Source: an uncultured Acidimicrobiaceae bacterium (GTDB lineage Bacteria > Actinomycetota > Acidimicrobiia > Acidimicrobiales > Palsa-688). Taken from it: a stretch of 64,000 bases of DNA. Shown here piece by piece: positions 3,396 through 39,517 of the stretch. Where the stretch lies: NCBI GenBank assembly GCA_963729695.1, contig CAVSOT010000007.1, positions 425,332 through 489,331 on the forward strand, written 5' to 3'. Both the position numbers and the translations under genes were made by a program. The first letter of the stretch is position 1, and each line of letters starts with the position of its first letter. A model generated the notes under the pieces. It did not search any database and was not told where the DNA came from. It worked only from the letters and a program-made list of their open reading frames with translations.

Positions 3396-3923
3396 TTGCT
3401 GGACCCGACGGCTGAGCTCGCCCCCGCGAGCAGGGCGCTCGTCTCCCGCCCTGCTGGCCTCGACGGGTTGACCATCGGTCTGCTCGACATCTCCAAGCCC
3501 AGAGGTGACGTGTTCCTCGACCAGCTCGCGCAGCGACTGCACGGGCGGGGATGGAGCGTCCTGCGCTATGCAAAACCAACCTTCACCAAGCCGGCGCCCA
3601 TCGATCTTCGCCAGGAGATCGCCGTCCAGTGCGACGTGGTGATCGAGGCCCTCGCCGATTGAGGCAGCTGTACGTCGTGCAGTGTGCACGACATCGCCGA
3701 CCTGGACTCGCGAGGCGTGCCAGGCGTGTTTGTGGCGTCCCGCGAGTTCATCCCTGCCGCCGCGGCCCAGTCCGAAGGTCTCGGTTTTCCCGCCGCCGCG
3801 GTCTTTGTCGACCACCCGATACAGGATCGCACCGACGAGGAGGTCAGAGCCCTGGCTGACGGCGCCCTGCCTGCGCTTCTCGCCGCGCTCACCAACCCTG
3901 CGCCCACCCGCAGCGCGGACTGA
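3396..3923 (+). CDS. UGSC-motif selenoprotein (TGA 3660-3662 read as selenocysteine); function unknown
   Basis: ORF-track fragments 3396..3662 and 3684..3923 share one frame and are split only by TGA. Read-through gives ...VVIEALAD-U-GSCTSCSVHDIADL.... A paralog with the same TGA context lies at 31761, a hairpin lies 11 nt downstream, and the sel genes are in the window. The start is uncertain (TTG 3396, or ancestral ATG 3350 in another frame). Confidence 0.8.
3674..3692 (+). promoter_or_regulatory. SECIS-like RNA hairpin downstream of Sec codon
   Basis: Perfect inverted repeat GTCGTGCA-GTG-TGCACGAC starting 11 nt after TGA 3660-3662. The apical region contains GU. Confidence 0.55.
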
Positions 3924-27155: not shown

Positions 27156-28397
27156 GTGATGACACAGTCCAGGTTTGTACGCCTCATAGAGCGGTTCGAT
27201 CCGTTCGATCCCGAGTTCGTACAGCACTTCAACCAGGTTTGCGGAGACCTCAGGGAGCAATGCCCGGTTGCCCACAGTTCGGCGCACGGAGGGTTTTGGA
27301 CCTTCAGCCGGTTCGACGAGGTGCTGCACGGCTTTGCCGACAACGATGGCCTGTCGGCGGTTCCCACGGCGACGATTCCCCCCAATCCCAACGCGGTGCA
27401 CCTCCTGCCCCTTCAGGCGGACCCGGCCGAACACGGCGACCTCCGTCGATTCCTCAACCCGTACTTTCGGGCGGGGGCGGTTGGCAAATTCGAAGCGGGC
27501 ATCCGATCCGAGGTCACCGCGCTCATCGACGATTTCATCGAAGCCGGGCGCTGCGAGTTCATCGCCCAATTCGGTCGGCGCCTACCCGGCGCCGTCATCT
27601 TCCGCCAGCTGCTCGGGCTTCCCGAAAGCGAAGTGGACGAGGCCTACCACTGGGTGATGGCCATCATGCACGGCCACAACACCGACGAGTTCGGTCATAT
27701 CTTCGACAGTTTCTCGACTCTGGCCGCAGGCATGCTCGAACGCCGGCGGAACGAGGACCGCCGCGACGACGCCGTCGATGCCCTCCTGCACGGAACGATA
27801 GGGGACCGGCTCCTCACCGACGACGAGATCATCCGGACGCTCATGCTCCTCATCGCGGGTGGGCTGGACACGACCGCGCATGCCCTCGGCAACTTTGTCA
27901 TCAGGTTGGCGCACGACCCGGAGCTGCGGGGGCGCCTCGAAGCCGAGCCGCAGCGCATACCGGGAGCCATCGAGGAGCTGCTGCGCATCGACCCGCCGGC
28001 CGGTGGGCTCGTGCGCACGGCGGTGCGCGACCTGGTGATCGACGGCGCGGAAGTACGGGAGGGCGACCGGATCCTGCTCCTGGTCGCGGCGGCGAATCGA
28101 GACCCCCGCGAGTTCGAGGCGCCCGAGCGCATCGATCTCGACCGCACCCGCAATCGGCATCTGTCTTGGGGATACGGCACCCACTTCTGTCTCGGCGTGC
28201 ACCTGGCCCGCCTGGAACTACGGGTGGCGTTCGAGGAGATCCTCGACCGGCTCCACGACATTCAGGTGCTCGACCATCCCGTCCCCTACGACACGGGCTG
28301 TTCTAGGGGCCCCGTCGCCCTGCGCATCGGCTTCACGCCGGGACTGCGACGTGAGCCCCAGAGGTCAGCTGCGCACGCGTCCCCGAACGATGGCTGA
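27156..28397 (+). CDS. cytochrome P450
   Basis: Heme loop WGYGTHFCLGVHLARLE and EELLR. Confidence 0.9.
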   Translation: MMTQSRFVRLIERFDPFDPEFVQHFNQVCGDLREQCPVAHSSAHGGFWTFSRFDEVLHGFADNDGLSAVPTATIPPNPNAVHLLPLQADPAEHGDLRRFLNPYFRAGAVGKFEAGIRSEVTALIDDFIEAGRCEFIAQFGRRLPGAVIFRQLLGLPESEVDEAYHWVMAIMHGHNTDEFGHIFDSFSTLAAGMLERRRNEDRRDDAVDALLHGTIGDRLLTDDEIIRTLMLLIAGGLDTTAHALGNFVIRLAHDPELRGRLEAEPQRIPGAIEELLRIDPPAGGLVRTAVRDLVIDGAEVREGDRILLLVAAANRDPREFEAPERIDLDRTRNRHLSWGYGTHFCLGVHLARLELRVAFEEILDRLHDIQVLDHPVPYDTGCSRGPVALRIGFTPGLRREPQRSAAHASPNDG

Positions 28398-29286
28398 ATC
28401 CGCGCTTGGTATGGTGCTCGACTGGTTCGGCTGCGCGACCTTCCGGCTGCGGGCGCAGGGCGTGACGATCTTTCTGGACGCCTACATCGATCGGGTCGCG
28501 GGGGCTCCGGGCCCCGCCCTCACTGCCGATGACGTCGACGAGTGCGATTGGATGGTGATCGGCCACTCGCACTTCGATCACCTTTACGGTGCGGATCGCA
28601 TTGCCAGCTCGACCGGGTGTCGGATCATCGGCAGCTACGAGACGATCCGTGTCCTCGAATCGTGCGGGGTTCCGATCGACCAGATGATCTGCGTCTCCGG
28701 TGGGGAGCGCATCGAGCTGGCCGATGGGCTCCGGGTTTCGGTGTACCCGAGCCAGCATTCCTGCGTGTGGACCCACCGCCAGATGCCGCGGGTCGACGAG
28801 GTGTGCATCGGCGACCTCGGCGTCACGTGGCAGGAGCAGGCGGCGCGACTCGCCGACCTGGGCGCCTACTACGCCGGGCTCGGGGGCGCCCTGTTCGACC
28901 ATCTTCGGTCGACGCATCAAGGCGCAAGGGGCGACGGTGGCTCGTTGGTGTATCTCTTCGAGACGCCCGAGGGTTCGCTTCTCTACCAGGACACTTCGGG
29001 ATGCTGGACGGGGGTGCTCCGTGACCTCCGACCGGATGTCGCCATTCTGGCCGCGGCTGGTCGGGGCAACCTCGATGGGGATCCCATCCAGGGGAGCCTG
29101 GCCCAGTTCGTCGCTCGGGAGGTGGCTCTGCTGAGGCCCCGACAGGTCGTGCTCAGTCACCATGATGACTGGCTCCCCGGGTTTTCCGTCGAGACTGACG
29201 TCGGGCCTATCCGATCTGAGCTTTCCCGCCTGGCCCCGAGCGCCGAGCTGCGGGAAATCGGGTATCTCGATGGGACGGTGCTGTAG
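28390..29286 (+). CDS. MBL-fold metallo-hydrolase
   Basis: HxHxDH (VIGHSHFDHLYG). ATG 28390 (MAESALGMVLDWFG...) overlaps the P450 stop by 8 nt. Confidence 0.75.
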   Translation: MAESALGMVLDWFGCATFRLRAQGVTIFLDAYIDRVAGAPGPALTADDVDECDWMVIGHSHFDHLYGADRIASSTGCRIIGSYETIRVLESCGVPIDQMICVSGGERIELADGLRVSVYPSQHSCVWTHRQMPRVDEVCIGDLGVTWQEQAARLADLGAYYAGLGGALFDHLRSTHQGARGDGGSLVYLFETPEGSLLYQDTSGCWTGVLRDLRPDVAILAAAGRGNLDGDPIQGSLAQFVAREVALLRPRQVVLSHHDDWLPGFSVETDVGPIRSELSRLAPSAELREIGYLDGTVL

Positions 29287-29298
29287 CCGGCCCGGTCG

Positions 29299-31425
29299 GT
29301 GCACTCATCGTGGTTGACACCCGGCGGACCGTGTGAGACGGTGATGTTTGCTTTGAGCCGAGCAGGTAGTTCGTTGAGGACAACCGCTGTCGTCGGAGCC
29401 GGGGCCAGCGGCCTGTCGGCCGCCTGGCACGTGGCCCGTCGGGGTCATCACGTCATCCTGATCGACCATCAGGGGGCCGGGGGACAACTGTTGAACGTTG
29501 GCGTCATCGAGTCCGTTCCTGGTCTCGGGTCGTCGGTACGGGGGCCCGACCTGGTCGCTCGAATGGTGCAGCAGATGGATGAGCAGAAGATCGAGTGGCT
29601 GCACGAGCGGGCTGTCAACATCGGGCACCGGTCGAACCGGTTCCGGATCCTCACCGACGCGGGTTCCGAGGTCGTGGCCGACGCCGTCATCGTGGCAACC
29701 GGATCTTGGCACCGCCAACTCGGTGTTCCCGGCGAGGACGCCCTCGAGCACCGGGGCGTGTCCCACTGCGCCGTCTGTGACGGCCCGCTCTACCGGGATC
29801 GACCAGTAGCAGTGGTGGGTGGCGGCGACGCGGCCGCCGACGCCGCCGCCTACCTGGCCGGCATCTGCTCGCGGGTTCACCTCGTGCACCGAGCGGGTCG
29901 ACTCGAAGCGGTTGATGCCTTGTGTCGCCGGCTCTATGGGCTCCCCAACGTGGAGCATTGGCCCGACACGGAGGTGCGTCGCATCGGTGGGGACACAGCG
30001 GTCGAGGCGGTGGAGATCGAAGACGGCGCCGGGGGGAGGCGGAGCATCGAAGTAGCCGCTGTCTTCGTCGCCGTCGGGATGGATCCCGACGCCTCCTTGG
30101 TCGCCGGCCTCGCCCAGCTCGACCCCTCAGGATGCGTGGCGGTCGATGCCGGCCTGATGACAAACGTCCCGGGCCTGTTCGCCGTGGGAGCGGTCCGGGC
30201 GGGGACCTCCGGCCAGCTGGCGGGCTCCATCGGCGACGGTGTCGCCGCCGCCGCGGCCGCGGATGGGTGGCTTCGGTCCCAGCGCCCGCCGGCCGGTAGT
30301 CCAGGGTTGGCTCGTAGTCCAGGGTCGGCTCGTAGTCCAGGGTCGGCCCTTCGTCCGGGATGGGCCGGTGGTCCCGGATGGCCCGGCAACGCCACTCGCA
30401 CCCGTCGTCTCGACGATGGCTCGGACTACGTCGACTACGGCGACTTCTTCGACTCGATGGGCGAAGTCGGGGTCGGCGATGGATTGCCTCTTGTGCCGCC
30501 TACACCGGCGCGTTTCGACCGCTTCGCCACCGCGTTGGCGTGCGATCCCTACGAACTGCTGCCGGCTCTTCCGGACGGCCGCCGGCTGCGCTACGCCGAC
30601 CTCGTCATGTCCGCCATCCTGGCCGGCTGCCGCCCGGAGTACATGCCGGTGGTCGCGGCCGCAGCCGAGTCGCTGTTGACGGATCTCGCCGGCCGGCAAC
30701 CGCGACTGCCCGACTCCGTTGCGGTCGTCCTCGTCAACGGTCCCGTCCGGGAGACGATCGGCCTCAATTGCTCGGACGGCCTCTTCGGGCCGGGGTGGCG
30801 AGCCAATGCCACCATCGGGCGGGCCGTTCAGCTGTTCCTCCGTGGGCAGGTCGACGATCGCCGGCCGACCGGGTTCGGCGACGCCGGACAGATCGCGTTC
30901 TGCTTCGGAGAAGATGAACAAACGTCGCCCTGGACGCCACTGCACGTCCAGCGGGGATTAGATCCAGGCCAGAGCACGGCCACCGTTTTCGTGGCCAACG
31001 CCTACCGGCACATGCTGGACCGTCAGAACACTGATGCGGACGGGATCATCGAGTACCTGCGGCTGTTCCTTCGCGGCCGGGCCTCAGGAACCCGACTGTT
31101 CGGCGACGTCCCGCTAACCCTGATGGTCGTCATCGGTCGGGAGCTGCGGCGCCAGTTGGCCCCGCGCTATTCGAAGGCGGAGCTATCCGAACGGCTGTTC
31201 GACCTTCTGACCCTGGACGACGGGACGCCCTTTGGGCCAATCGACGTGCCCGATGCCGACCACGTTCTGATCGTCGGGGCGGGAGGCGTCGCCACCCCCG
31301 CACTATGGTGCTTTGTCGCGGCGGCGTCGCCGCCCGTTACCGTGCCGGTCCGCGATCCGGGACTCGCCTTCGGATCTGGGCCGCCGCCACGAGCTCGAGA
31401 GATGAGCCAAGGAGAAGCGAGATGA
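29299..31425 (+). CDS. fusion protein: thioredoxin-reductase-like flavoprotein (CAVC) + Pro/Gly-rich repeat linker + domain X
   Basis: VVGAGASGLSAAWHVARRG (FAD GxGxxG), GVSHCAVCDGPLY (TrxB-type redox disulfide), VVGGGDAAADAA (NADPH site) and GLFAVGAV. The C-terminal DGLPLVPPTPAR...LAGCRPEYMPVV...VNGPV...WRANATIGRA...FCFGEDEQ is domain X. Start may be ATG 29344. Confidence 0.85.
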   Translation: MHSSWLTPGGPCETVMFALSRAGSSLRTTAVVGAGASGLSAAWHVARRGHHVILIDHQGAGGQLLNVGVIESVPGLGSSVRGPDLVARMVQQMDEQKIEWLHERAVNIGHRSNRFRILTDAGSEVVADAVIVATGSWHRQLGVPGEDALEHRGVSHCAVCDGPLYRDRPVAVVGGGDAAADAAAYLAGICSRVHLVHRAGRLEAVDALCRRLYGLPNVEHWPDTEVRRIGGDTAVEAVEIEDGAGGRRSIEVAAVFVAVGMDPDASLVAGLAQLDPSGCVAVDAGLMTNVPGLFAVGAVRAGTSGQLAGSIGDGVAAAAAADGWLRSQRPPAGSPGLARSPGSARSPGSALRPGWAGGPGWPGNATRTRRLDDGSDYVDYGDFFDSMGEVGVGDGLPLVPPTPARFDRFATALACDPYELLPALPDGRRLRYADLVMSAILAGCRPEYMPVVAAAAESLLTDLAGRQPRLPDSVAVVLVNGPVRETIGLNCSDGLFGPGWRANATIGRAVQLFLRGQVDDRRPTGFGDAGQIAFCFGEDEQTSPWTPLHVQRGLDPGQSTATVFVANAYRHMLDRQNTDADGIIEYLRLFLRGRASGTRLFGDVPLTLMVVIGRELRRQLAPRYSKAELSERLFDLLTLDDGTPFGPIDVPDADHVLIVGAGGVATPALWCFVAAASPPVTVPVRDPGLAFGSGPPPRAREMSQGEAR
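30296..30385 (+). repeat. in-frame 18-nt (6-aa) tandem repeat, 5 diverging copies, forming the inter-domain linker
   Basis: GTAGTCCAGGGTTGGCTC / GTAGTCCAGGGTCGGCTC / GTAGTCCAGGGTCGGCCC / TTCGTCCGGGATGGGCCG / GTGGTCCCGGATGGCCCG, encoding GSPGLARSPGSARSPGSALRPGWAGGPGWPG. Confidence 0.7.
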
Positions 31426-32112
31426 ACCCTCTGGTGCGTCCGGTGAACGTTCGAAACGAGGTCGGAGTGGTGTGCGACCCGCTCGCTCCCTTGCCGGCCG
31501 GCGATGGCCGCGCCGAGCGGACCGTTGCCTCCCGGCCCTCGTCGCTCGACGGCAAGGTGCTCGCCGTGATCGACAACGGGATGGGCCAGCAAGCTCCAGG
31601 ACTGGGTTTCGGAGAGGTCTTGGTCCGGAAGCTGAAGGAGGTGGCCGACATTGCCGATGTCATCTACGTTCGCAAGGACGCGGTCAACGTCCCCCCTCGC
31701 CCAGAGGACTGGATGGAGATATGCCGTCGTGGCGACGTCGGTCTGGCCCTCTACGGCGCTTGAGGGAGTTGCAGCTCGCGCAGTTTCGCGCGACGCCATA
31801 GAGCTCGAGTGGGCTGGCATACCGGCAGTAGCGGTGGTGCACGAGGCGCTGGCCGGCTCGGCCGACGCCATGAGGTTGATGTCGGGGATCCCGCACTATC
31901 CGTTTCTCGAGGTCAACTTCCCGTTACCCCCGGTCGGCCCGTGGACCGTCGAGCAGGTTGAGGCTGTGTGCGACGAGCTGCTCCCCGGAGTGATCGAACA
32001 ATTGACCCACGACATCGCCGGGCCCGCGGCGCGTGACCAGCAGTCCGCCCCTGCGCTGGTCCCTGCCGGTGATGCCGTCGCAGAGGATCGGCCGAGGGCC
32101 CCGGCGCCGTGA
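31422..32112 (+). pseudogene. UGSC-motif (seleno)protein paralog; needs TGA 31761 recoding and a +1 frame correction near 31779 (pseudogene or assembly indel)
   Basis: ATG 31422 overlaps the upstream stop (ATGA). Frame 0 gives ...DVGLALYGA-TGA-GSCSS. The homologous continuation AVSRDAIELEWAGIPAVAVVHEAL...PFLEVNFP is in the +1 frame through TGA 32110-32112. The span is 3n+1 nt. Confidence 0.6.
31776..31793 (+). promoter_or_regulatory. SECIS-like hairpin downstream of second in-frame TGA
   Basis: TCGCGC-AGTTTC-GCGCGA, starting 12 nt after TGA 31761-31763. The loop contains GU. Confidence 0.4.
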
Positions 32113-33189
32113 CAGCCGGCGGTCAGACCCGGACGTTCGCCGATTATGACGATTTCTTCGATGACTTTGTCGAGCGCGGCGCTACGGATGGGCTTCCCAT
32201 CATCCCCCCGACCCCAGCCCGAGTGGACGCTGCTCTGGCCGCGGCCGGGCTGGATGGACGCGAAGTGTTGGGGGAGATTCCCACCCGGGATGTCGTGGTG
32301 GACGCCCGGCGGGTCGCGATCAACGCAGTCATGGCGGGGTGCTTGCCCGAGTACATGCCTGTCGTGGCGGCCGCGGTGCGAGCGTGGACGCATCCGCTGG
32401 CCAATGGGCACGGCGTCACCGGGAGCCTCGCCGGGCCGACCAATCCCATCATCATCAATGGTCCCATCGCGACGGAGCTCGGGTTCAACGGTGGGGCGGG
32501 GTGCTTCGGGCCGGGCTGGCGAGCCAATGCCACGGTGGGACGAGCACTTCGTCTGATCGTCAGGAACGTCGCTCTGTCGATACCCGGCTTCGCCGATCGC
32601 GCCGCCTACTCCCAGCCTGGGCGCTTCACGTTCTGCTTCTGCGAAGACCAACAATCGACCGTCTGGAACCCACTCCACGTCGAGCGCGGCTACCGCCCCG
32701 AGGACAGCGTGGCAAGCGTGCATTCGAACACGGACATCTTCACCTATCGCAGCGAGGAGCCCGACCCGGAGGGCCTCCTCGACGGCCTCGTGACCCTCGC
32801 TCGGGCTCGTCCGGTCCAGAAGGAGGACTTCGTGGGCCAGTGGCGCAGCGTGGTCATCGGTAATTGGACCGGATCACCGCGACGTCCTGGAGCGCAACGG
32901 ATGGTCGAAGGCAGCTGTCCGCGAGTATTTGCATCCTCGGTTGACGATGCCGGACACGTTCGAGCCGGGCGCTCGGACCGTCTGGGGTAGCCAACCGACG
33001 GGAAGCCTGGGTGAGTACTCGTTCTATATCCCGAACGCCGACAACGTCCTCCTCGTTGCCGCCGGGGGGAGGTCGGCCTTCCAATCTGTCGTTTTGTACC
33101 CCCACGTGTCCAGCACCGTCTCCGCCGAGGTCACCTTCGACGGTTCGCGCGGCCGGTTGGTCCCCGACGACAGCATCGTGTGCGGTTGA
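32109..33189 (+). pseudogene. stand-alone domain-X paralog with +1 frame discontinuity at about 32862 (pseudogene or assembly indel)
   Basis: GTG 32109 overlaps the upstream stop (GTGA). Frame 0 carries DGLPIIPPTPAR...MAGCLPEYMPVV...INGPI...WRANATVGRA...FCFCEDQQ...WRSVVIG. The homologous C-terminus (IGPDHRDVLERNGWSKAAV...LLVAAGG) continues in the +1 frame to 33189. The span is 3n+1 nt. Confidence 0.6.
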
Positions 33190-33236
33190 GGCGCCCTGGC
33201 TTTTCTTTGGGGAGGTCAGGGTTGTTGGGCGGGCGG

Positions 33237-33764
33237 TCAGGGCGTGGGAAGGTACCGGTCCCTGTACAACTGATGGATGCGAGCTGACTGACCGACCTCT
33301 TGAAACTGGATCAGGTTGCCGTCTGGGTCCTGCAGGAATCCCGGCGCCGGAGGTTCGACGCCGAGGGAACGGGCCTTGGCAAAGAAGGCGTCCAGGTTGC
33401 GGACATCGAACGCCAAGTGGGTGTATCCCAAGCGGTCGAGCTTCTCCGACGGCCGCCCCCCGAGCTCGTCGCCCGGGTGGCCGATGAGCGTCAGGCTGAT
33501 GCCGCCGACGCGCTCGAAGATCACCATGCGCCGTATGGCGTGGACGCTGTCGTAGATCGCCCCCTCTGACGCCGTGGCCAGCTCGACGACTTCACCATCC
33601 TGCACGGCAAACCCGCCGAAGGTGCTCTCGCCGTCGACCCGTACGTTGGTCAGCACCCGCAATCCCACGACGTCCTCGTAGAAGCGCGTGGCTGCCTCTA
33701 TGTCGCGCACCGTAATGGTGATGTGGTCGATGCCGACGAGGTCCGATTCCTCGCTCATGGCCAA
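33237..33764 (-). CDS. VOC (glyoxalase) family protein
   Basis: GIDHITITVRDIEAATRFYEDVVGL and HLAFDVRN motifs. RBS GAGGGAGGA. Confidence 0.75.
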   Translation of the reverse strand: MAMSEESDLVGIDHITITVRDIEAATRFYEDVVGLRVLTNVRVDGESTFGGFAVQDGEVVELATASEGAIYDSVHAIRRMVIFERVGGISLTLIGHPGDELGGRPSEKLDRLGYTHLAFDVRNLDAFFAKARSLGVEPPAPGFLQDPDGNLIQFQEVGQSARIHQLYRDRYLPTP

Positions 33765-33865
33765 TAGTCCTCCCTCTCGATCCGTCGAATGCTATCGCTC
33801 GGCCCCGGGCGGCCCAAAGTGGCTCGCAGACGGGATGAACACGAGGAGGCGGGAGCGTGGAGGTC

Positions 33866-34870
33866 TCAGTCGAGCGCGACCATGGGCGGTCCGGGCCCGA
33901 CCTCTCCAATCTCCCACCACCCGTTTCCGGCCAGGACCCCAGCGTCGTCGGGATGGACCGAGACGAGGAGTCCTCCCGAGGTTTGGGGGTCGATGGCCAG
34001 AGCCTCCAGGCTGGGTTCGGCCGCCGACGACAGATGGCCCTGCAAGTAGGCCCGGTTTCGGGCATCACCGCCCGTGCGCACCCCGGCCGTGGCGGCGCGC
34101 TTGGCCCCCGGATACAGAGGGAGGGCGGCCGAGTCGAACCGGATCGAGGCGCCTGACCTCTCGGCAATTTCCCAACCGTGACCAACCAGGCCGAACCCGG
34201 TCACGTCGGTGACTGCGTGCGCCGCCGGCCCGTAGTCTCGATCAGGAAGCTGCGCCAGTTGCTGCGCCGCCTTCCTGTTGAGCACTCGCATCTGCCCGAT
34301 CGTGGCCGTTTTCGAGCCTTCGTCGGTGCTGGCCAGCACGATGCCGGAGCCCAGCGGTTTGGAGAGGAGCAAGCGATCCCCCGCCAGGGCGCCGCCTTTG
34401 GTCCAGATCCGCTCGGGATCCACCAGCCCTTGGACAGCGAGGCCGAAGATCGGTTCGGCCGACCGGATCGTGTGGCCGCCGGCAATCGTCCCCCCGGCTT
34501 CGGCGACCACGGCGGCGGCCGCCTCCAGGATGGCTGCGATCGCATCTGGGGGGAATTCCTCGGGAAAGGCGGCAATGTTGAGAGCGGTGATCACCCGTCC
34601 TCCCATGGCGAATACGTCGCTGCAAGCGTTCGCGGCTGCGATGGCCCCGAAGTCGGCCGGATCGTCCACCAGGGGTGGGAAGAAGTCGGTGGTGGACACG
34701 ACCGCCAGTTCGGGCGATAGCCGGTACACAGCGGCGTCGTCGAAGGGGGCCAGACCGACGAGGAGATCAGCGTCCTCGGTCCCGGCGACCAGGTCCACCA
34801 GCCCGCTCAACGCGGCGCCGCCCCATTTGGCCGCGCACCCTCCACAGGATGTCCATTCGGTCAGTTTCAC
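33866..34870 (-). CDS. selD: selenide, water dikinase (selenophosphate synthetase), Cys-type
   Basis: LTEWTSCGGCAAKWGG N-terminal active-site loop followed by the AIR-synthase-like fold (DDAAVYRL..., DFFPPLVDDP, TDVTGFGLVGH). GTG 34870 overlaps the selA stop (GTGA). The longer ORF-track N-terminus overlaps selA and looks non-coding. Confidence 0.9.
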   Translation of the reverse strand: MKLTEWTSCGGCAAKWGGAALSGLVDLVAGTEDADLLVGLAPFDDAAVYRLSPELAVVSTTDFFPPLVDDPADFGAIAAANACSDVFAMGGRVITALNIAAFPEEFPPDAIAAILEAAAAVVAEAGGTIAGGHTIRSAEPIFGLAVQGLVDPERIWTKGGALAGDRLLLSKPLGSGIVLASTDEGSKTATIGQMRVLNRKAAQQLAQLPDRDYGPAAHAVTDVTGFGLVGHGWEIAERSGASIRFDSAALPLYPGAKRAATAGVRTGGDARNRAYLQGHLSSAAEPSLEALAIDPQTSGGLLVSVHPDDAGVLAGNGWWEIGEVGPGPPMVALD

Positions 34871-36180
34871 GGACCAGATCCTTCCGTTGGTGAGGGGGCC
34901 GCGTGGGCGGGCCCTGACAACGCCGCTCGTATCGCCTCGCCGAGGTCGCCGTCCTGGTGCTCGAAAACGGCGCGCATCTCGCAGAGGGTGCGGCCCTTTT
35001 CGACCCTGGGGATCACGGGAGGTTGCCAGCTGCGCAGGGGCGCGGAGATATCGCCTTCGATGGCCACGGCAACCGAGGGGATGAGCACGCCGGGGAGCGT
35101 TCCACCCCCCATGGGAGCCGCCGTATCGACCACCTCGCCGACAGCCAGGCGCTGTGCCCTTTGGCGGAGATCCGGCAACGGAGTCGTGGCCAGCTTCCAC
35201 AGCGGCACGGTGGACCCGGCGTCACGCCGCAGGTAGGCCAAAGCGACGTTCTGAAGTGCTTCCAGGACCAGGCCGCCCGGGCGGAGCACCCGGGCCAGCG
35301 GGTGCCGGCGGCACCTGTCCACCAGGGTGCTCGAACCGGCGATGATGCCGGCCTGCGGGCCGCCGAGCAGCTTGTCGCCGCTGAAGGTGATCAGGTCGGC
35401 TCCAGCCGACAGCGTCTGGCGGCACGCCGGTTCTCCCCCCAGCCAGTCTGGTGGACCGTCGGAGAGCCACGGGCAGGCCGCGTCCAGCAGCCCGGACCCG
35501 AGGTCGACCACCACCGGTGCTCCCAGCCCTTTGAGCTCCCGGACGGCGACCGACTCGGTGAAGCCACTGACGCGAAAGTTGGAGGTGTGGACCTTGAGCA
35601 CCAACGAGGTGAGAGGACCGATGGCCGCCTCGTAATCTCCTCGCTTGGTCCGGTTGGTGGTCCCAATCTCGACCAGCTGCGCACCCGAGGTCGCCAGGAT
35701 CTCCGGTATCCGGAATCCTCCGCCGATCTCGACGAGCTCTCCCCGGCTCACGATCACCTGGCCACCGCCACCGGCGAGCGCGGTGAGGGCGAGGAGGACG
35801 GCGGCCGCTCCGTTGTTGACCACCAGGGCCTCCTCGGCGCCGCACGCTTTGGCGATCAGGGTGGCGGCGTGCGCGGAGCGGTCGCCCCTGCTGCCGGCAT
35901 TGACGTCGAATTCGAGATTTGAGTACCCCGCCACGCGCTCGACGGGCAGCGGCGCTCTGCCGAGATTGGTGTGCAACAGCACCCCGGTTGCGTTGACGAG
36001 AGGCCGGAGGAGGCGCCGCCGGGTGTCGGCGGCTACGGCGGCCGCCCGTTGCAGGATGGTGTCCCCGTTGCCGTCCTCGCGGAGGACCGTCCTGGCCACG
36101 TCGACCAGAATCGGATGAGGCAGACCTGACGGCGCCAGCTGGCGGGCCAACGAGTCCACCGATGGTGGGCGGTGCGCCAC
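34867..36180 (-). CDS. selA: L-seryl-tRNA(Sec) selenium transferase
   Basis: VNATGVLLHTNLGRAPL, and the PLP-lysine motif FSGDKLLGGPQAG. Confidence 0.9.
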   Translation of the reverse strand: MAHRPPSVDSLARQLAPSGLPHPILVDVARTVLREDGNGDTILQRAAAVAADTRRRLLRPLVNATGVLLHTNLGRAPLPVERVAGYSNLEFDVNAGSRGDRSAHAATLIAKACGAEEALVVNNGAAAVLLALTALAGGGGQVIVSRGELVEIGGGFRIPEILATSGAQLVEIGTTNRTKRGDYEAAIGPLTSLVLKVHTSNFRVSGFTESVAVRELKGLGAPVVVDLGSGLLDAACPWLSDGPPDWLGGEPACRQTLSAGADLITFSGDKLLGGPQAGIIAGSSTLVDRCRRHPLARVLRPGGLVLEALQNVALAYLRRDAGSTVPLWKLATTPLPDLRQRAQRLAVGEVVDTAAPMGGGTLPGVLIPSVAVAIEGDISAPLRSWQPPVIPRVEKGRTLCEMRAVFEHQDGDLGEAIRAALSGPAHAAPSPTEGSGP

Positions 36181-36258
36181 GCCCGTAGGCTAGCCCTGAT
36201 GAGCATCGCCGACAGAGCCTGCATCCGCGTCGTAGTGGGGCGGGGCGGGCTGCTCCGG

Positions 36259-36351
36259 CGGAGGTGGACGGGAATCGAACCCGCCGCTGTGGGTGCGCCA
36301 CAGCCAACCGCTTTGAAGGCGGCGGAGTCCACCAGGTACTCGGACACCTCC
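36259..36351 (-). tRNA. selC: tRNA-Sec (anticodon UCA)
   Basis: The reverse complement reads GGAGGTGTCCGAGTACCTGGTGGACTCCGCCGCCTTCAAAGCGGTTGGCTGTGGCGCACCCACAGCGGCGGGTTCGATTCCCGTCCACCTCCG. It has a 7-bp acceptor (GGAGGTG/CACCTCC), anticodon loop CTTCAAA, a long variable arm (GCTGTGG-CGCAC-CCACAGC) and a 6-bp T-stem with loop TTCGATT, giving 13 stacked acceptor+T base pairs as in tRNA-Sec. It lies between selA and selB. Confidence 0.85.
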
Positions 36352-36452
36352 GCGTGGGAGTGTAACGACGGTCAAAAGCGGCCGGCAAGCCGGCGCAGGG
36401 GCCGTCAGCTCGACCATCAGGCGCGCCACGCGACCATCGCGGTCGAGGTCCT

Positions 36453-38183
36453 ATGGCGGTAATCGCGACAGCCGGTCACGTCGATCACGGGAAGTCGACA
36501 TTGGTATTGGCCTTGACCGGCGTCGATCCCGATCGTCTCCCTGAAGAGCAAACGAGAGGCATGACGATCGATCTGGGGTTCGCCCACACCACGCTGAAAT
36601 CGGGTCGACAGGTTTCTTTTATCGACGTTCCCGGACACGGGCGATTCGTGAAGAACATGTTGGCCGGTGTGACAGGAGTGGACGGCGTCCTTTTCGTCGT
36701 CGCCGCCACGGAAGGGTGGAAAGCCCAGTCGGAGGAGCATCTGGCCATATTGGAACTGACCGGCGCCCCGGCCGGGGTGGTGGCGTTCACCAAGGTTGCC
36801 GGAGTTCCACGAGCCCAGCTCGAGGCCGTGGTGGCGGACTGCCGCCGCTTTCTGTCTGGTTCTTTCCTCGCTGATGCGGAGATCGTTTTCGTCGATGTGC
36901 CGCACAACGTCGGACTGCCAGAGCTGCAGGATGCCCTCGACAGATTGGTCGGTAAGGTCGCTGCGCCAGTGGACTGCCGGCGGCCCAGACTGTGGATCGA
37001 CCGTTCCTTTTCCGTTCGGGGGACTGGGACCGTGGTGACGGGGACACTCAACGATGGGCCGCTCGCGGTAGGGGACATCGTCGCCGTGCAGCCGGGGCGT
37101 CGCCCCGTGCGGATCCGGGGCCTCCAGAGCAACGGTCGCCCGCTCTCGGACGCGTCGCCGGGCTGTCGGCTGGCGGTCAACCTGGCGGATACGGCGGTGA
37201 CCGAGGTGCGTCGCGGTCAGGCCGTGGTGCGACCCGACGAGTGGCATCTGACGCGGACGTTCGACGCCTCCCTCCAGGTGCTGCGGTCGGTCGCCCACGA
37301 GATTTCCCAGAAGGGCGCCTTCACGGTCCACATCGGCACGTCTGCGGTTCCGGTCCGGATCCGCGTGATCGGCGAGGAAACCCACCTGGGAGCTGGCGAG
37401 GAAGGATTCGTTCGGGTGTGGATGCAAAGGGGCTCCACCCTTCCGTTGGTACCCGGTGACCGGTACATCCTTCGGGAAGCCGGCCGAGCCGAAACGGTCG
37501 GAGGTGGCGAGGTCCTCGATGTCGATCCGTTGCTGGGCGCCAAACGGGCGATGCCTTCGAAATCGGCAGAGCGGGTGGTCAGCGAGCGCGGCTGGGTGGA
37601 CGTGGACGAGCTGCAACGGCTGACCGGGCAGACGCTGGCGCCCAACGCCGGCCGGTGGGTCGTGGACCCCGCCGTGCTGGCTGCCCAGCGGGAAGACCTG
37701 AAGGCCAGGTGTCGGGCGGCCGGTCGGAGCGGTTTGGACACGGCCACCCTGGATGACCTGCAGCGTGCCATTCTCGACTTGGGCCTCGACGGTATCCGCG
37801 TGGCGCATGGACGAGCGGTTGACGAGTCCTCCTCGGAGGAGCTCAGCACGGATGAAACCCGGGTGCTCCGCATTCTCGAGTCGAGTCCCTGGGACCCCCC
37901 GGATCTGCCGCTCGGAGACAGAGGGGCCTTGCGGCGGCTGCAACGCCTGGGACTCGTCGTGGAGTCCGAGAGCATCTGGTTTGCCACCTCAGCGGTGGAA
38001 AAGGCCATGGCGGTGATCGTCGGGCTCGTCCGGGATCACCAGGAGGGATTCACCGTTGCCCAATTTCGCAGTGCGCTCGGCACGAGTCGCAAATTTGCCC
38101 TGCCGCTCCTGCGTTATGCAGATACCGCAGGCCTCACCAAACGCGAGGGTGATTTCCGGAAGCTGAGGCATACCGAAAGTTGA
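36453..38183 (+). CDS. selB: selenocysteine-specific translation elongation factor
   Basis: G-domain AGHVDHGKSTL, DVPGH and a C-terminal winged-helix extension. 576 aa. Divergent from tRNA-Sec/selA. Confidence 0.9.
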   Translation: MAVIATAGHVDHGKSTLVLALTGVDPDRLPEEQTRGMTIDLGFAHTTLKSGRQVSFIDVPGHGRFVKNMLAGVTGVDGVLFVVAATEGWKAQSEEHLAILELTGAPAGVVAFTKVAGVPRAQLEAVVADCRRFLSGSFLADAEIVFVDVPHNVGLPELQDALDRLVGKVAAPVDCRRPRLWIDRSFSVRGTGTVVTGTLNDGPLAVGDIVAVQPGRRPVRIRGLQSNGRPLSDASPGCRLAVNLADTAVTEVRRGQAVVRPDEWHLTRTFDASLQVLRSVAHEISQKGAFTVHIGTSAVPVRIRVIGEETHLGAGEEGFVRVWMQRGSTLPLVPGDRYILREAGRAETVGGGEVLDVDPLLGAKRAMPSKSAERVVSERGWVDVDELQRLTGQTLAPNAGRWVVDPAVLAAQREDLKARCRAAGRSGLDTATLDDLQRAILDLGLDGIRVAHGRAVDESSSEELSTDETRVLRILESSPWDPPDLPLGDRGALRRLQRLGLVVESESIWFATSAVEKAMAVIVGLVRDHQEGFTVAQFRSALGTSRKFALPLLRYADTAGLTKREGDFRKLRHTES

Positions 38184-38926: not shown

Positions 38927-39517
38927 ATGACCGTTAGCTCTGATCCCGTAGCGACGAAAGAGCCCCGCAGGTACCGGTTGAGTCATACCGGGGAGTTGTT
39001 CCCGCTGGGTTTCAAGCCCGCCTCGTCCCCCCGCATCGACGCAGACGTCGAGAGCAACCCCTTGCCGACATGGGACGGTCAGCCCGGCTTGGCCAAAGCG
39101 TTCATGAAGCACGACGAGGCCGTGTTCTGCCGGGATGGGAGCGGCCTGATTCCCATGGACGTCAAGGAGCCCGTCCGTCTCCGCGTGGCCCGAGTCGGGG
39201 GCTGCAAGATCTGCAGCAACACTCGAAACGCGGTGGCGCGCGATCAGGGCGTCAGCGAAGAGATGCTCGACCAGGTCACGGATCACTACGAGGAGTCGGG
39301 GCTTACCGATTACCAGAAGGTGGCGCTTCGTTACGCCGATGCGATCCTGTTGTCGACGCCCCCGTCGGACGAGTTGAAGCGCGAGCTGCTGCAACACTTC
39401 ACGGTCGAGCAGATCGTCGAGCTCACTCTCTTTGTGAGCCAGTGCCGGGTGTTCGCTGCCGTCACGATCGTGGAAGGAATCCAGCCTGACGAGATGCCGG
39501 AGAAGTGGGTCCACTGA
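38927..39517 (+). CDS. carboxymuconolactone decarboxylase (AhpD-like) family protein with CxxC
   Basis: LRVARVGGCKICSNTRN (CxxC at the AhpD core position). Confidence 0.75.
   Translation: MTVSSDPVATKEPRRYRLSHTGELFPLGFKPASSPRIDADVESNPLPTWDGQPGLAKAFMKHDEAVFCRDGSGLIPMDVKEPVRLRVARVGGCKICSNTRNAVARDQGVSEEMLDQVTDHYEESGLTDYQKVALRYADAILLSTPPSDELKRELLQHFTVEQIVELTLFVSQCRVFAAVTIVEGIQPDEMPEKWVH

What the first reader, a model, noticed from the sequence alone, without database searches (positions are those of the whole stretch)
33866..38183. Compact, complete Sec-decoding locus: selC-selA-selD on one strand, selB divergent
selD (Cys-type active-site loop TSCGGCAAK), selA (FSGDKLLGGPQAG), tRNA-Sec and selB all lie within 4.3 kb. 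selA and selD overlap by GTGA. A VOC-family gene lies directly downstream of selD on the same strand (102-nt gap). TGA is also the predominant ordinary stop codon among the genes called here, so discrimination must depend on local SECIS elements. The only TGA-interrupted genes I can find in the window are the two UGSC genes.
Basis: partly seen in the sequence, partly recalled or inferred. Interest (0 to 1): 0.6.

Follow-up and report, generated by a model that had tools for sequence, protein, structure and literature searches.

The report
Rearranged but ordinary selenocysteine gene cluster
This is a real and complete set of the four genes bacteria need to insert selenocysteine into proteins; its parts are ordinary, its gene order is a lineage-specific reshuffle, and it serves at least 13 thiol-redox selenoprotein genes in an Acidimicrobiales genome.

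Summary
tRNA-Sec, selA, Cys-type selD and selB all pass curated cut-offs. selA and selD overlap by GTGA, and selB is divergent. TGA makes up 62% of confident stop codons genome-wide.

New here:
1. **Gene order.** All 20 relatives examined keep selA-selB adjacent and co-directional, usually as selC-selA-selB-selD. The window's order is derived. It is not a misassembly: a JGI metagenome contig (about 80% nucleotide identity) is collinear over selB 5' end | selC | selA-GTGA-selD | VOC | UGSC module. A second contig also shows selA overlapping selD.
2. **Selenoproteome.** A whole-genome scan finds 13 selenoprotein genes, not two: 6 UGSC, 3 AhpD-like, 2 Prx-like-TPR, 1 PrxQ and 1 thioredoxin-like (weak). 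Nine of the eleven tested have a SECIS-like stem, against 23% of controls. No Sec-containing formate dehydrogenase and no selU were found.
3. **VOC gene.** It sits next to sel genes only in the close sister contig, so a selenium role is unsupported.
4. **SelB G4 motif.** SelB here, and in 15 of 20 order-level relatives, lacks the G4 aspartate (TKVA/TKVG). All 30 other SelBs sampled from the phylum have xKxD.

Verdict: a known system with a lineage-specific order; modest interest. This scan has already judged sel clusters in other genomes ordinary.

The parts
33866..34870 (-). selD, selenide-water dikinase (selenophosphate synthetase), Cys-type, 334 aa, GTG start
   Evidence: TIGR00476 scores 321.8 bits against a cut-off of 125. 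phmmer to E. coli SelD 3U0O gives E 3e-58, with Cys12 matching Cys17 and Lys15 matching Lys20. It is the only selD in the genome.
34867..36180 (-). selA, L-seryl-tRNA(Sec) selenium transferase, 437 aa (the public gene call starts 7 codons later, 430 aa); its TGA stop overlaps the selD GTG start (GTGA)
   Evidence: TIGR00474 393.5 bits (cut-off 267.9) and PF03841 322.8 bits. PLP-lysine motif FSGDKLLGGPQAG is present. The overlap is read directly from the sequence. A GGAAGGA Shine-Dalgarno-like run lies 9 nt before the selD GTG.
36257..36351 (-). selC, tRNA-Sec (anticodon UCA); 7-bp acceptor + 6-bp T stem, 6-bp D stem with 4-nt loop, 7-bp variable arm; the 3' end reads GCCG, so CCA is not fully encoded
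   Evidence: Found by ARAGORN. Rfam RF01852 scores 64.2 bits against a gathering score of 47. An alignment with 12 relatives gives 31 pairs, 11 with compensatory changes. It is the only match over the cut-off in the genome.
36359..36364 (-). Candidate -10 box TACACT, 7 nt upstream of the tRNA-Sec 5' end (inference only)
   Evidence: It lies in a block (GTTACACTCC) conserved between the window and sister contig L043, inside an otherwise unalignable spacer. The sigma-70 consensus scan found nothing.
36352..36452 (.). 101-nt divergent spacer between selC and selB
   Evidence: Read from the sequence. The fold of the selB leader is not unusual, z = -1.38. The spacer is 239 nt and poorly conserved in L043.
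36453..38183 (+). selB, selenocysteine-specific elongation factor, 576 aa; G1 GHVDHGKS and G3 DVPGH are intact, G4 reads TKVA instead of TKxD
   Evidence: TIGR00475 283.3 bits (cut-off 242.25); PF00009 and PF09107 at residues 528-571. phmmer to E. coli SelB 5LZB gives E 8e-64 and aligns TKVA to TKAD.
33237..33758 (-). VOC/glyoxalase-fold gene downstream of selD; a neighbour, probably not part of the system
   Evidence: PF00903 55.5 bits. It is conserved after selD in L043 at 85% aa identity. It is absent from the sel neighbourhood of 20 relatives. Its own RBS GAGAGGGAGGA and a TAGCAT block are conserved in the spacer.
3396..3923 (+). UGSC-family selenoprotein gene, a client of the machinery; Sec codon TGA at 3660-3662
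   Evidence: PF24696 138.7 bits with one TGA inside. An 8-bp stem starts 14 nt after the UGA.
31422..32112 (+). Second UGSC gene; Sec codon TGA at 31761-31763, plus a +1 frame break just after UGSCSS
   Evidence: Three-frame translation. PF24696 matches in two pieces in two frames. In sister contig L043 the two called pieces are in one frame.
38927..39517 (+). AhpD-like/CMD protein with CxxC (GGCKIC), a Cys paralogue of the genome's three CxxU AhpD-like selenoproteins; lies two genes after selB
   Evidence: tblastn aligns its Cys to the TGA of the genes at C3:1350031, C4:540538 and C4:133692. PF02627 is weak at 22-24 bits. It is not syntenic with sel loci in relatives.

Best explanation
This is the functional selenocysteine-insertion machinery of an Acidimicrobiales bacterium. 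It works by the standard bacterial route.

1. SelD (Cys-type) makes selenophosphate from selenide and ATP.
2. tRNA-Sec is charged with serine.
3. SelA converts the serine to selenocysteine on the tRNA.
4. SelB binds Sec-tRNA-Sec and a hairpin that begins about 8-17 nt after the UGA in each selenoprotein mRNA, and delivers the tRNA to that UGA.

The remaining TGA codons, which make up 62% of stops, lack the hairpin in a coding context and terminate translation.

The gene order is a derived, lineage-specific rearrangement of the selC-selA-selB-selD cluster kept by relatives. selB has moved out from between selA and selD and now points away from selC. selD has become translationally coupled to selA through the GTGA overlap and an upstream GGAAGGA. 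Two nested inversions would produce this order.

The machinery serves at least 13 thiol-redox selenoprotein genes. One UGSC operon lies directly beside it. There is no Sec-containing formate dehydrogenase and no selenouridine pathway.

**Shown:** gene identities, the overlap, the order in relatives and in the sister contig, the selenoprotein genes, and the enrichment of hairpins.
**Inferred:** the selC-selA-selD co-transcript, the promoter, translational coupling, and the inversion path.
For: - **Gene identities:** all four sel genes exceed curated cut-offs. The catalytic Cys and Lys of SelD align to E. coli Cys17 and Lys20. The tRNA-Sec structure is supported by 11 compensatory pairs across 13 genes.
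- **Order in relatives:** in all 20 relatives' loci selA and selB are adjacent and co-directional. selD follows in 10 of them, including 5 of the 6 same-genus genomes examined.
- **Sister contigs:** JGI contig L043 (SelA 82% identity) is collinear with window 36366..27180 at 79-80% nucleotide identity. It carries the divergent selB 5' end (94% aa identity), an identical tRNA-Sec and the GTGA overlap. A second JGI contig also has selA overlapping selD by 4 nt.
- **Origin:** SelA, SelB and SelD trees place the window's proteins inside the family-level clade.
- **Clients:** 13 selenoprotein genes have TGA aligned to Cys or to another TGA in paralogues, or lying inside Pfam matches. SECIS-like stems follow 9 of the 11 tested, against 23% of controls.
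- **Scope of selenium use:** there is no stop codon inside any of six PF00384 enzymes, no TIGR03167 selU, and only one selD.
- **Stop usage:**
Against:
- SelB lacks the canonical G4 aspartate (TKVA) and sits on the longest branch of its clade (0.77). One UGSC client is frame-broken in this assembly. These could be read as early decay. However, the G4 change is shared by 15 of 20 relatives that also keep selenoprotein genes beside their sel loci.
- The genome is 89% complete, so absences (Sec-FdhA, selU) are 'not found', not proven.
- The tRNA acceptor/T partition (7+6, or 8+5 with a U-C mismatch) departs from the textbook 8/5.
Confidence: 0.9

Rival explanations
1. The unusual order (selB divergent, selA fused to selD) is an assembly artefact of a MAG that also shows indel errors.
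For: The genome has 13 contigs, 89% completeness and 4.3% contamination. Frame breaks occur in a UGSC gene, and relatives' sel genes are split into pieces in several long-contig MAGs.
Against: Two independent JGI metagenome contigs from different samples show the same selA-4 nt-selD overlap. One of them also shows the divergent selB and the same flanking genes. The junction is a clean GTGA with an upstream RBS.
Confidence: 0.02
2. The locus, or selB alone, was acquired by horizontal transfer from a distant lineage, which would explain the odd order.
For: Sec-trait transfer of clustered sel genes together with a selenoprotein gene is documented (PMC1794560, PMC5029168). The window's SelA, SelB and SelD sit outside the tight same-genus clade on long branches.
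Against: All three proteins fall inside the family-level Acidimicrobiales clade. For SelB that clade has 100/99 support. The best public hits are all named Acidimicrobiales. The tRNA-Sec is nearly identical to those of relatives. The UGSC module next to the sel genes is also found in relatives G001, G004, G008 and G022.
Confidence: 0.05
3. The system is decaying: SelB is impaired (G4 Asp lost, long branch) and the selenoprotein genes are on the way to loss.
For: SelB reads TKVA in place of TKxD and has a branch length of 0.77. The second UGSC gene is frame-broken.
Against: All four sel genes are open and above equivalog cut-offs. Twelve selenoprotein genes are uninterrupted apart from the Sec codon, and most keep SECIS-like stems. 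The G4 change is clade-wide. An earlier follow-up in this scan judged the frame break a one-base insertion that relatives lack, and the sister contig has the gene in one frame.
Confidence: 0.04
4. The VOC gene is a functional fourth member of a selC-selA-selD-VOC operon, for example in handling a selenium or thiol compound.
For: It is on the same strand about 105 nt after selD, and no terminator was detected. It is conserved in that position in sister contig L043 at 85% aa identity.
Against: No VOC homologue lies within about 6 kb of selA in any of 20 relatives. L043 is collinear over the whole region, so its conservation carries no specific information. The spacer keeps its own RBS and a TANNNT-like TAGCAT block.
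Confidence: 0.08

Closest known systems
selC-selA-selB-selD clusters of other Acidimicrobiales (20 unnamed GTDB relatives examined here)
   Same: The same four orthologous genes (SelA 54-69%, SelB 47-61%, SelD 64-73% identity within the main clade), a nearly identical tRNA-Sec, and in several cases a UGSC module next door.
   Different: In relatives selA is followed by selB, often overlapping it, and then by selD. In the window selA is followed by and overlaps selD, and selB is alone on the other strand beyond selC.
Mycobacterial sel locus: selD divergent from selC-selA-selB (bioRxiv 10.64898/2026.03.03.709296)
   Same: All four genes lie in one compact locus. selC is immediately upstream of selA on the same strand, and one gene is divergent.
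   Different: There the divergent gene is selD, selA-selB stay together, and the client is fdhA. Here the divergent gene is selB, selA-selD are coupled, and no Sec-FdhA is found. Relatives G032 and G055 do have the mycobacterial-type order.
Proteobacterial selA-selB-selC operon beside fdhA (Zhang et al. 2006, PMC1794560), and the E. coli system with selAB, selC and selD at separate sites
   Same: The same mechanism, families and SECIS-dependent UGA recoding. The sel genes are linked to a selenoprotein gene.
   Different: Different gene order. The linked selenoprotein is UGSC, not FdhA. The selenoproteome has 13 genes, whereas FdhA is the only selenoprotein in those proteobacterial lineages per that paper.
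Marine and metagenomic thiol-redox selenoproteomes (GOS study PMC2398784; review PMC13188914)
   Same: The client families are the ones catalogued there: UGSC-containing, AhpD-like (CxxU), Prx, and Prx-like/Trx-like. A Prx/AhpD-like selenoprotein gene pair like C4:132713-133799 is a co-location already described there.
   Different: Here they are seen together in one 6.2-Mb genome with six UGSC paralogues.

Membership tests
tRNA-Sec (Rfam RF01852) | UCA anticodon and a covariance-model score above the gathering threshold | tested here: met
   ARAGORN reports tRNA-SeC with anticodon tca. RF01852 scores 64.2 bits against 47.
tRNA-Sec (Rfam RF01852) | Bacterial Sec geometry: 13 bp in acceptor + T (textbook 8/5), 6-bp D stem with 4-nt loop, long variable arm | tested here: inconclusive
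   The D stem has 6 bp (one bulged base) and a 4-nt loop. The variable arm has 7 bp. The sum is 13 bp, but RNAalifold partitions it 7+6 (G67-C85 invariant); an 8/5 reading would need a U-C mismatch. Secmarker and tRNAscan-SE were not available.
SelA (TIGR00474 / PF03841) | Equivalog score above the cut-off, and the PLP-binding lysine motif | tested here: met
   393.5 bits against 267.9. FSGDKLLGGPQAG is present.
SelD (TIGR00476) | Equivalog score above the cut-off; N-terminal Gly-rich loop with catalytic Cys/Sec and Lys | tested here: met
   321.8 bits against 125. Cys12 and Lys15 align to E. coli Cys17 and Lys20. GCAAK matches the A. aeolicus-type loop.
SelB (TIGR00475) | Equivalog score above the cut-off; EF-Tu-like domains I-III plus a C-terminal winged-helix SECIS-binding domain | tested here: met
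   283.3 bits against 242.25. PF00009, PF03144 (weak), PF25461 (weak) and PF09107 at residues 528-571. The C-terminal winged helix aligns to E. coli and A. aeolicus SelB.
SelB (TIGR00475) | Canonical GTPase motifs G1 (GxxxxGKS/T), G3 (DxxG) and G4 ((N/T)KxD) | tested here: not met
   G1 GHVDHGKS and G3 DVPGH are present. G4 reads TKVA where E. coli has TKAD and A. aeolicus has TKMD. The same loss (TKVG, TKVA or THAA) occurs in 15 of 20 order-level relatives. All 30 other SelBs sampled from the phylum have xKxD. The failure is clade-wide, so it lowers confidence in textbook nucleotide binding, not in the SelB assignment.
Functional Sec-decoding trait | Selenoprotein genes with an in-frame TGA aligned to Cys/Sec of homologues, followed by a SECIS hairpin | tested here: met
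   13 genes. Stems of at least 6 bp follow 9 of the 11 tested, against 23% of controls.
Functional Sec-decoding trait | Actual selenium incorporation or UGA read-through | not testable with these tools
   This needs 75Se labelling, proteomics or ribosome profiling.
Selenouridine trait (SelD + SelU/MnmH) | Presence of tRNA 2-selenouridine synthase TIGR03167 | tested here: not met
   No match in the own genome, which is 89% complete. This agrees with the reported absence of the trait in Actinobacteria (PMC1794560).

The most novel reading that the evidence does not exclude
SelB of this Acidimicrobiales clade works without the guanine-specifying aspartate of the G4 motif. It reads TKVA here and TKVG, TKVA or THAA in 15 of 20 relatives, whereas all 30 other SelBs sampled from the phylum have xKxD. 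Nucleotide recognition or exchange in Sec delivery may therefore differ from the E. coli paradigm. In the window's sublineage selB has also been uncoupled from selA and given its own divergent promoter region, which could reflect retuning of the SelB:tRNA-Sec ratio for a 13-gene selenoproteome.
Probability: 0.2. Interest if true: 0.5.

Novelty: new member of a known kind. Interest (0 to 1): 0.27.

Why it matters
Mechanistically nothing new is required: this is the standard bacterial SelA/SelB/SelC/SelD system.

Its value is descriptive.
- It shows that an Acidimicrobiales genome, with oxygenase and steroid-type catabolic genes in the same window, keeps a selenoprotein-rich, purely thiol-redox selenoproteome. 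It has 13 genes, against the literature threshold of 6 (PMC5029168), and no selenocysteine formate dehydrogenase.
- It shows that the usually stable selA-selB adjacency can be broken and replaced by selA-selD coupling.
- It flags a clade-wide loss of the SelB G4 aspartate that could be tested biochemically.
- The physical link between the sel genes and a UGSC operon, which recurs in relatives, supports other findings of this scan that treat UGSC as a principal client.

Tried and rejected
- **Exact-sequence look-up of SelD** found nothing.
There was therefore no read-level check of junctions and no RNA evidence for a selC-selA-selD(-VOC) transcript.
- **A first codon-usage scan** was too noisy and missed the known UGSC gene. 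I replaced it with a hexamer model.
- **A relaxed TGA scan** (1979 candidates) was swamped by shadow-frame matches between paralogues and was dropped.
- **Promoter and terminator scan:** no sigma-70 promoter, and only intragenic terminator-like sites.
- **Repeat search:** no repeats mark the rearrangement borders; all hits are short, chance-level matches.
- **selB leader:** its fold is not significant, z = -1.38, so there is no evidence for a SECIS-like autoregulatory element.
- **Apparent TAG inside an EF-Tu-like match**: it is simply the tuf stop codon.
- **Family searches that found no Sec forms:** PF00384, PF10262, PF00085, PF13462, PF02566, PF01521, PF13098, PF00255, PF00581 and PF01323.
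- **Thioredoxin-like candidate at C7:147730:** it rests on weak Pfam scores and was not recovered by the genome-wide PF13098 search. It is the least certain of the 13.

Full report

Yes. ARAGORN finds a single tRNA in the 64-kb window: tRNA-Sec with anticodon TCA at 36257..36351 on the minus strand. Rfam's tRNA-Sec model scores it 64.2 bits against a gathering score of 47. It is the only match over the cut-off in the 6.2-Mb genome.

The gene products pass NCBI's equivalog models:
- The 437-aa product of 34867..36180 (-) scores 393.5 bits on TIGR00474 selA (cut-off 267.9).
- The product starting at GTG 34870 and ending at 33866 (-) scores 321.8 bits on TIGR00476 selD (cut-off 125).
- The 576-aa product of 36453..38183 (+) scores 283.3 bits on TIGR00475 selB (cut-off 242.25).

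The Pfam domains agree, including the C-terminal SelB winged helix. The sequence shows the GTGA overlap of the selA stop and the selD start at 34870..34867, preceded by GGAAGGA.

Aligned to E. coli SelD (PDB 3U0O), the loop TSCGGCAAK places Cys12 on catalytic Cys17 and Lys15 on Lys20. The enzyme is therefore Cys-type.

The downstream gene at 33237..33764 is a glyoxalase/VOC-fold protein.

Among about 1270 confident long ORFs in the genome, stops are TGA 783, TAG 347 and TAA 139. In the window my coding-potential scan finds no TGA read-through other than the UGSC gene at 3660. The second UGSC gene at 31761 also carries a frame break right after UGSCSS.

**2. What organism, and how does the locus compare with kin?**

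The nearest public SelA proteins that carry an organism name are annotated as Acidimicrobiales or Acidimicrobiaceae MAGs.

SelA is found over its cut-off in 39 of 61 genomes (G000 plus 60 relatives). I fetched about 13 kb around selA in 20 of the relatives and annotated them with tblastn and ARAGORN. In all 20, selA is immediately followed by selB on the same strand. In 10, including five of the six same-genus genomes examined, selD follows selB. tRNA-Sec sits either before selA or after selD. Two long-branch relatives (G032, G055) have the mycobacterial-type order with divergent selD, as described in bioRxiv 10.64898/2026.03.03.709296.

The window's order, selD<-selA<-selC | selB->, occurs in none of them. 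It can be derived from selD<-selB<-selA<-selC by two nested inversions. This path is an inference, and no repeats mark the borders.

**3. Is the odd order an artefact or foreign?**

Neither.
- The closest public SelA (82% identity) lies on a 9.8-kb JGI metagenome contig (L043). That contig is collinear with window 36366..27180 at 79-80% nucleotide identity. Its content, in order, is: the divergent selB 5' end (94% aa identity over 99 residues), a tRNA-Sec identical except for an encoded CCA, selA, the same GTGA overlap, selD, the VOC gene, then domain-X, UGSC and the TrxR-like fusion.
- A second contig from another sample (SelA 81% identity) also has selA overlapping an AIRS-family gene by 4 nt.
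- Maximum-likelihood trees of SelA, SelB and SelD place the window's proteins inside the family-level clade (100/99 support for SelB). They sit on long branches, SelB 0.77. There is no sign of a distant donor.

The rearrangement is therefore real, old enough to be shared by a sister lineage at about 80% nucleotide identity, and confined to that sublineage among the genomes searched.

**4. Which genes does the machinery serve?**

I trained a hexamer coding model on the genome. I listed in-frame TGAs with coding signal on both sides, then asked by tblastn whether paralogues align across the TGA with Cys or another TGA. I then checked candidates against Pfam and ran family searches that read through stops.

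The result is 13 selenoprotein genes:

| Family | Count | Genome positions and motifs |
|---|---|---|
| UGSC (PF24696) | 6 | C7:428991 and C7:457092 (both in the window), C4:419758, C4:798519, C11:135396, C7:824538-825065 |
| AhpD-like/CMD, CxxU | 3 | C3:1350031, C4:540538, C4:133692 |
| AhpC/TSA-redoxin-TPR, YUGC | 2 | C3:1228881, C7:1419079 |
| PrxQ/BCP-type peroxiredoxin, TAGUT | 1 | C4:132713-133090, directly upstream of the Sec-CMD gene |
| Thioredoxin-like, TUGGC (weak scores) | 1 | C7:147730 |

By the literature's definition of at least six genes (PMC5029168), the organism is selenoprotein-rich.

None of six molybdopterin oxidoreductases contains a stop, so no Sec-containing formate dehydrogenase was found. 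There is no selU and only one selD. In this 89%-complete genome, SelD therefore appears to serve Sec only.

A perfect stem of at least 6 bp starting 8-22 nt after the UGA is present in 9 of the 11 Sec genes tested (the two found later were not included). The figure is 23% for 2204 internal coding positions and 23% for true TGA stops. This supports SECIS-based discrimination.

**5. Neighbours.**

The VOC gene is not near sel genes in any of the 20 relatives. Its conservation in L043 is uninformative, because that whole contig is collinear. The selD-VOC spacer keeps only an RBS and a TAGCAT block. I rate a selenium role as unlikely.

The two CMD-fold genes after selB are also not syntenic in relatives. 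One (38927..39517, CxxC) is a Cys paralogue of the CxxU selenoproteins.

By contrast, a UGSC gene with its domain-X partner lies beside the sel locus in G001, G004, G008, G022 and L043. This agrees with earlier follow-ups in this scan.

**6. Details of the parts.**

- **tRNA-Sec.** Thirteen tRNA-Sec genes align, with 31 consensus pairs and 11 compensatory ones. The acceptor/T partition comes out as 7+6, with G67-C85 invariant, rather than the textbook 8/5. This matches another first-reader note.
- **Possible promoter.** A conserved TACACT lies 7 nt upstream of the tRNA and is a candidate -10 box. The consensus promoter scan found nothing.
- **selB leader.** It has no significant structure.
- **SelB G4 motif.** This is the one unexpected point. 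Where E. coli (TKAD) and A. aeolicus (TKMD) have the (N/T)KxD aspartate, the window has TKVA. Fifteen of 20 order-level relatives also lack the Asp (TKVG, TKVA or THAA). All 30 best-scoring SelBs from a 200-genome sample of the phylum have xKxD. Because the change is clade-wide and these genomes retain selenoprotein genes, I read it as a tolerated or compensated change, not decay. It is nonetheless a defining GTPase feature that is not met.

**7. Comparison with the known, and verdict.**

Every component belongs to a well-described family, and the mechanism is the standard bacterial one. Clustered sel genes next to a selenoprotein gene are well known (PMC1794560, PMC5029168). The client families are all catalogued (PMC2398784, PMC13188914). 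This scan has already judged several sel clusters in other genomes ordinary.

What is particular here:
- the broken selA-selB adjacency with selA-selD coupling;
- the FdhA-less, UGSC-rich selenoproteome of 13 genes;
- the SelB G4 variant.

I classify the finding as a new member of a known kind with modest interest.

**Limits.** The genome is incomplete. The selenoprotein list is a lower bound, since singletons without paralogues or outside the families searched would be missed.

Noticed in passing
window 36768-36779 (SelB residues 106-109, TKVA); relatives L023-L042: SelB lacks the G4 (N/T)KxD aspartate. It reads TKVA here and TKVG, TKVA or THAA in 15 of 20 order-level relatives. All 30 other SelBs sampled from the phylum, and E. 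coli and A. aeolicus SelB, have the Asp.
   Followed up: partly
window 36257-36351: The tRNA-Sec folds with a 7-bp acceptor and 6-bp T stem (G67-C85 invariant in 13 genes) instead of the textbook 8/5. The window copy ends GCCG, whereas six of the 12 relatives' genes and the sister contig encode GCCA.
   Followed up: partly
genome C4:132713-133799 (outside the window): A PrxQ-type peroxiredoxin with Sec (TAGUT) lies directly upstream of an AhpD-like protein with Sec (CHYU). This is a two-selenoprotein gene pair of a kind noted in metagenomes (PMC13188914).
   Followed up: partly
genome C4:306795-308031 (outside the window): A molybdopterin oxidoreductase (PF00384) matches in two pieces in different frames (model positions 14-236 and 252-352). 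This looks like another frameshift in this assembly.
   Followed up: no
whole genome: Many in-frame TAG or TGA codons align to Tyr or Trp in multi-copy paralogues (for example families with 30-50 copies on C1, C4, C8 and C10). This suggests numerous degraded IS or repeat-element copies.
   Followed up: no
genome C9:~296000-299800 and C13:~70700-74400: The ends of contigs C9 and C13 share stretches that are about 99% identical at the protein level (tblastn). This is probably an unresolved repeat or a redundant contig end in the assembly.
   Followed up: no
genome C8:137868-138086: A SelW-like (Rdx, PF10262) gene is present in the Cys form, with no in-frame stop.
   Followed up: no
relatives G001, G002, G003, G005, G006 (loci L025, L026, L040, L041): The selA or selB genes of several same-genus long-contig MAGs are split into pieces in different frames. 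This points to frequent indel errors in these assemblies rather than true pseudogenes.
   Followed up: no
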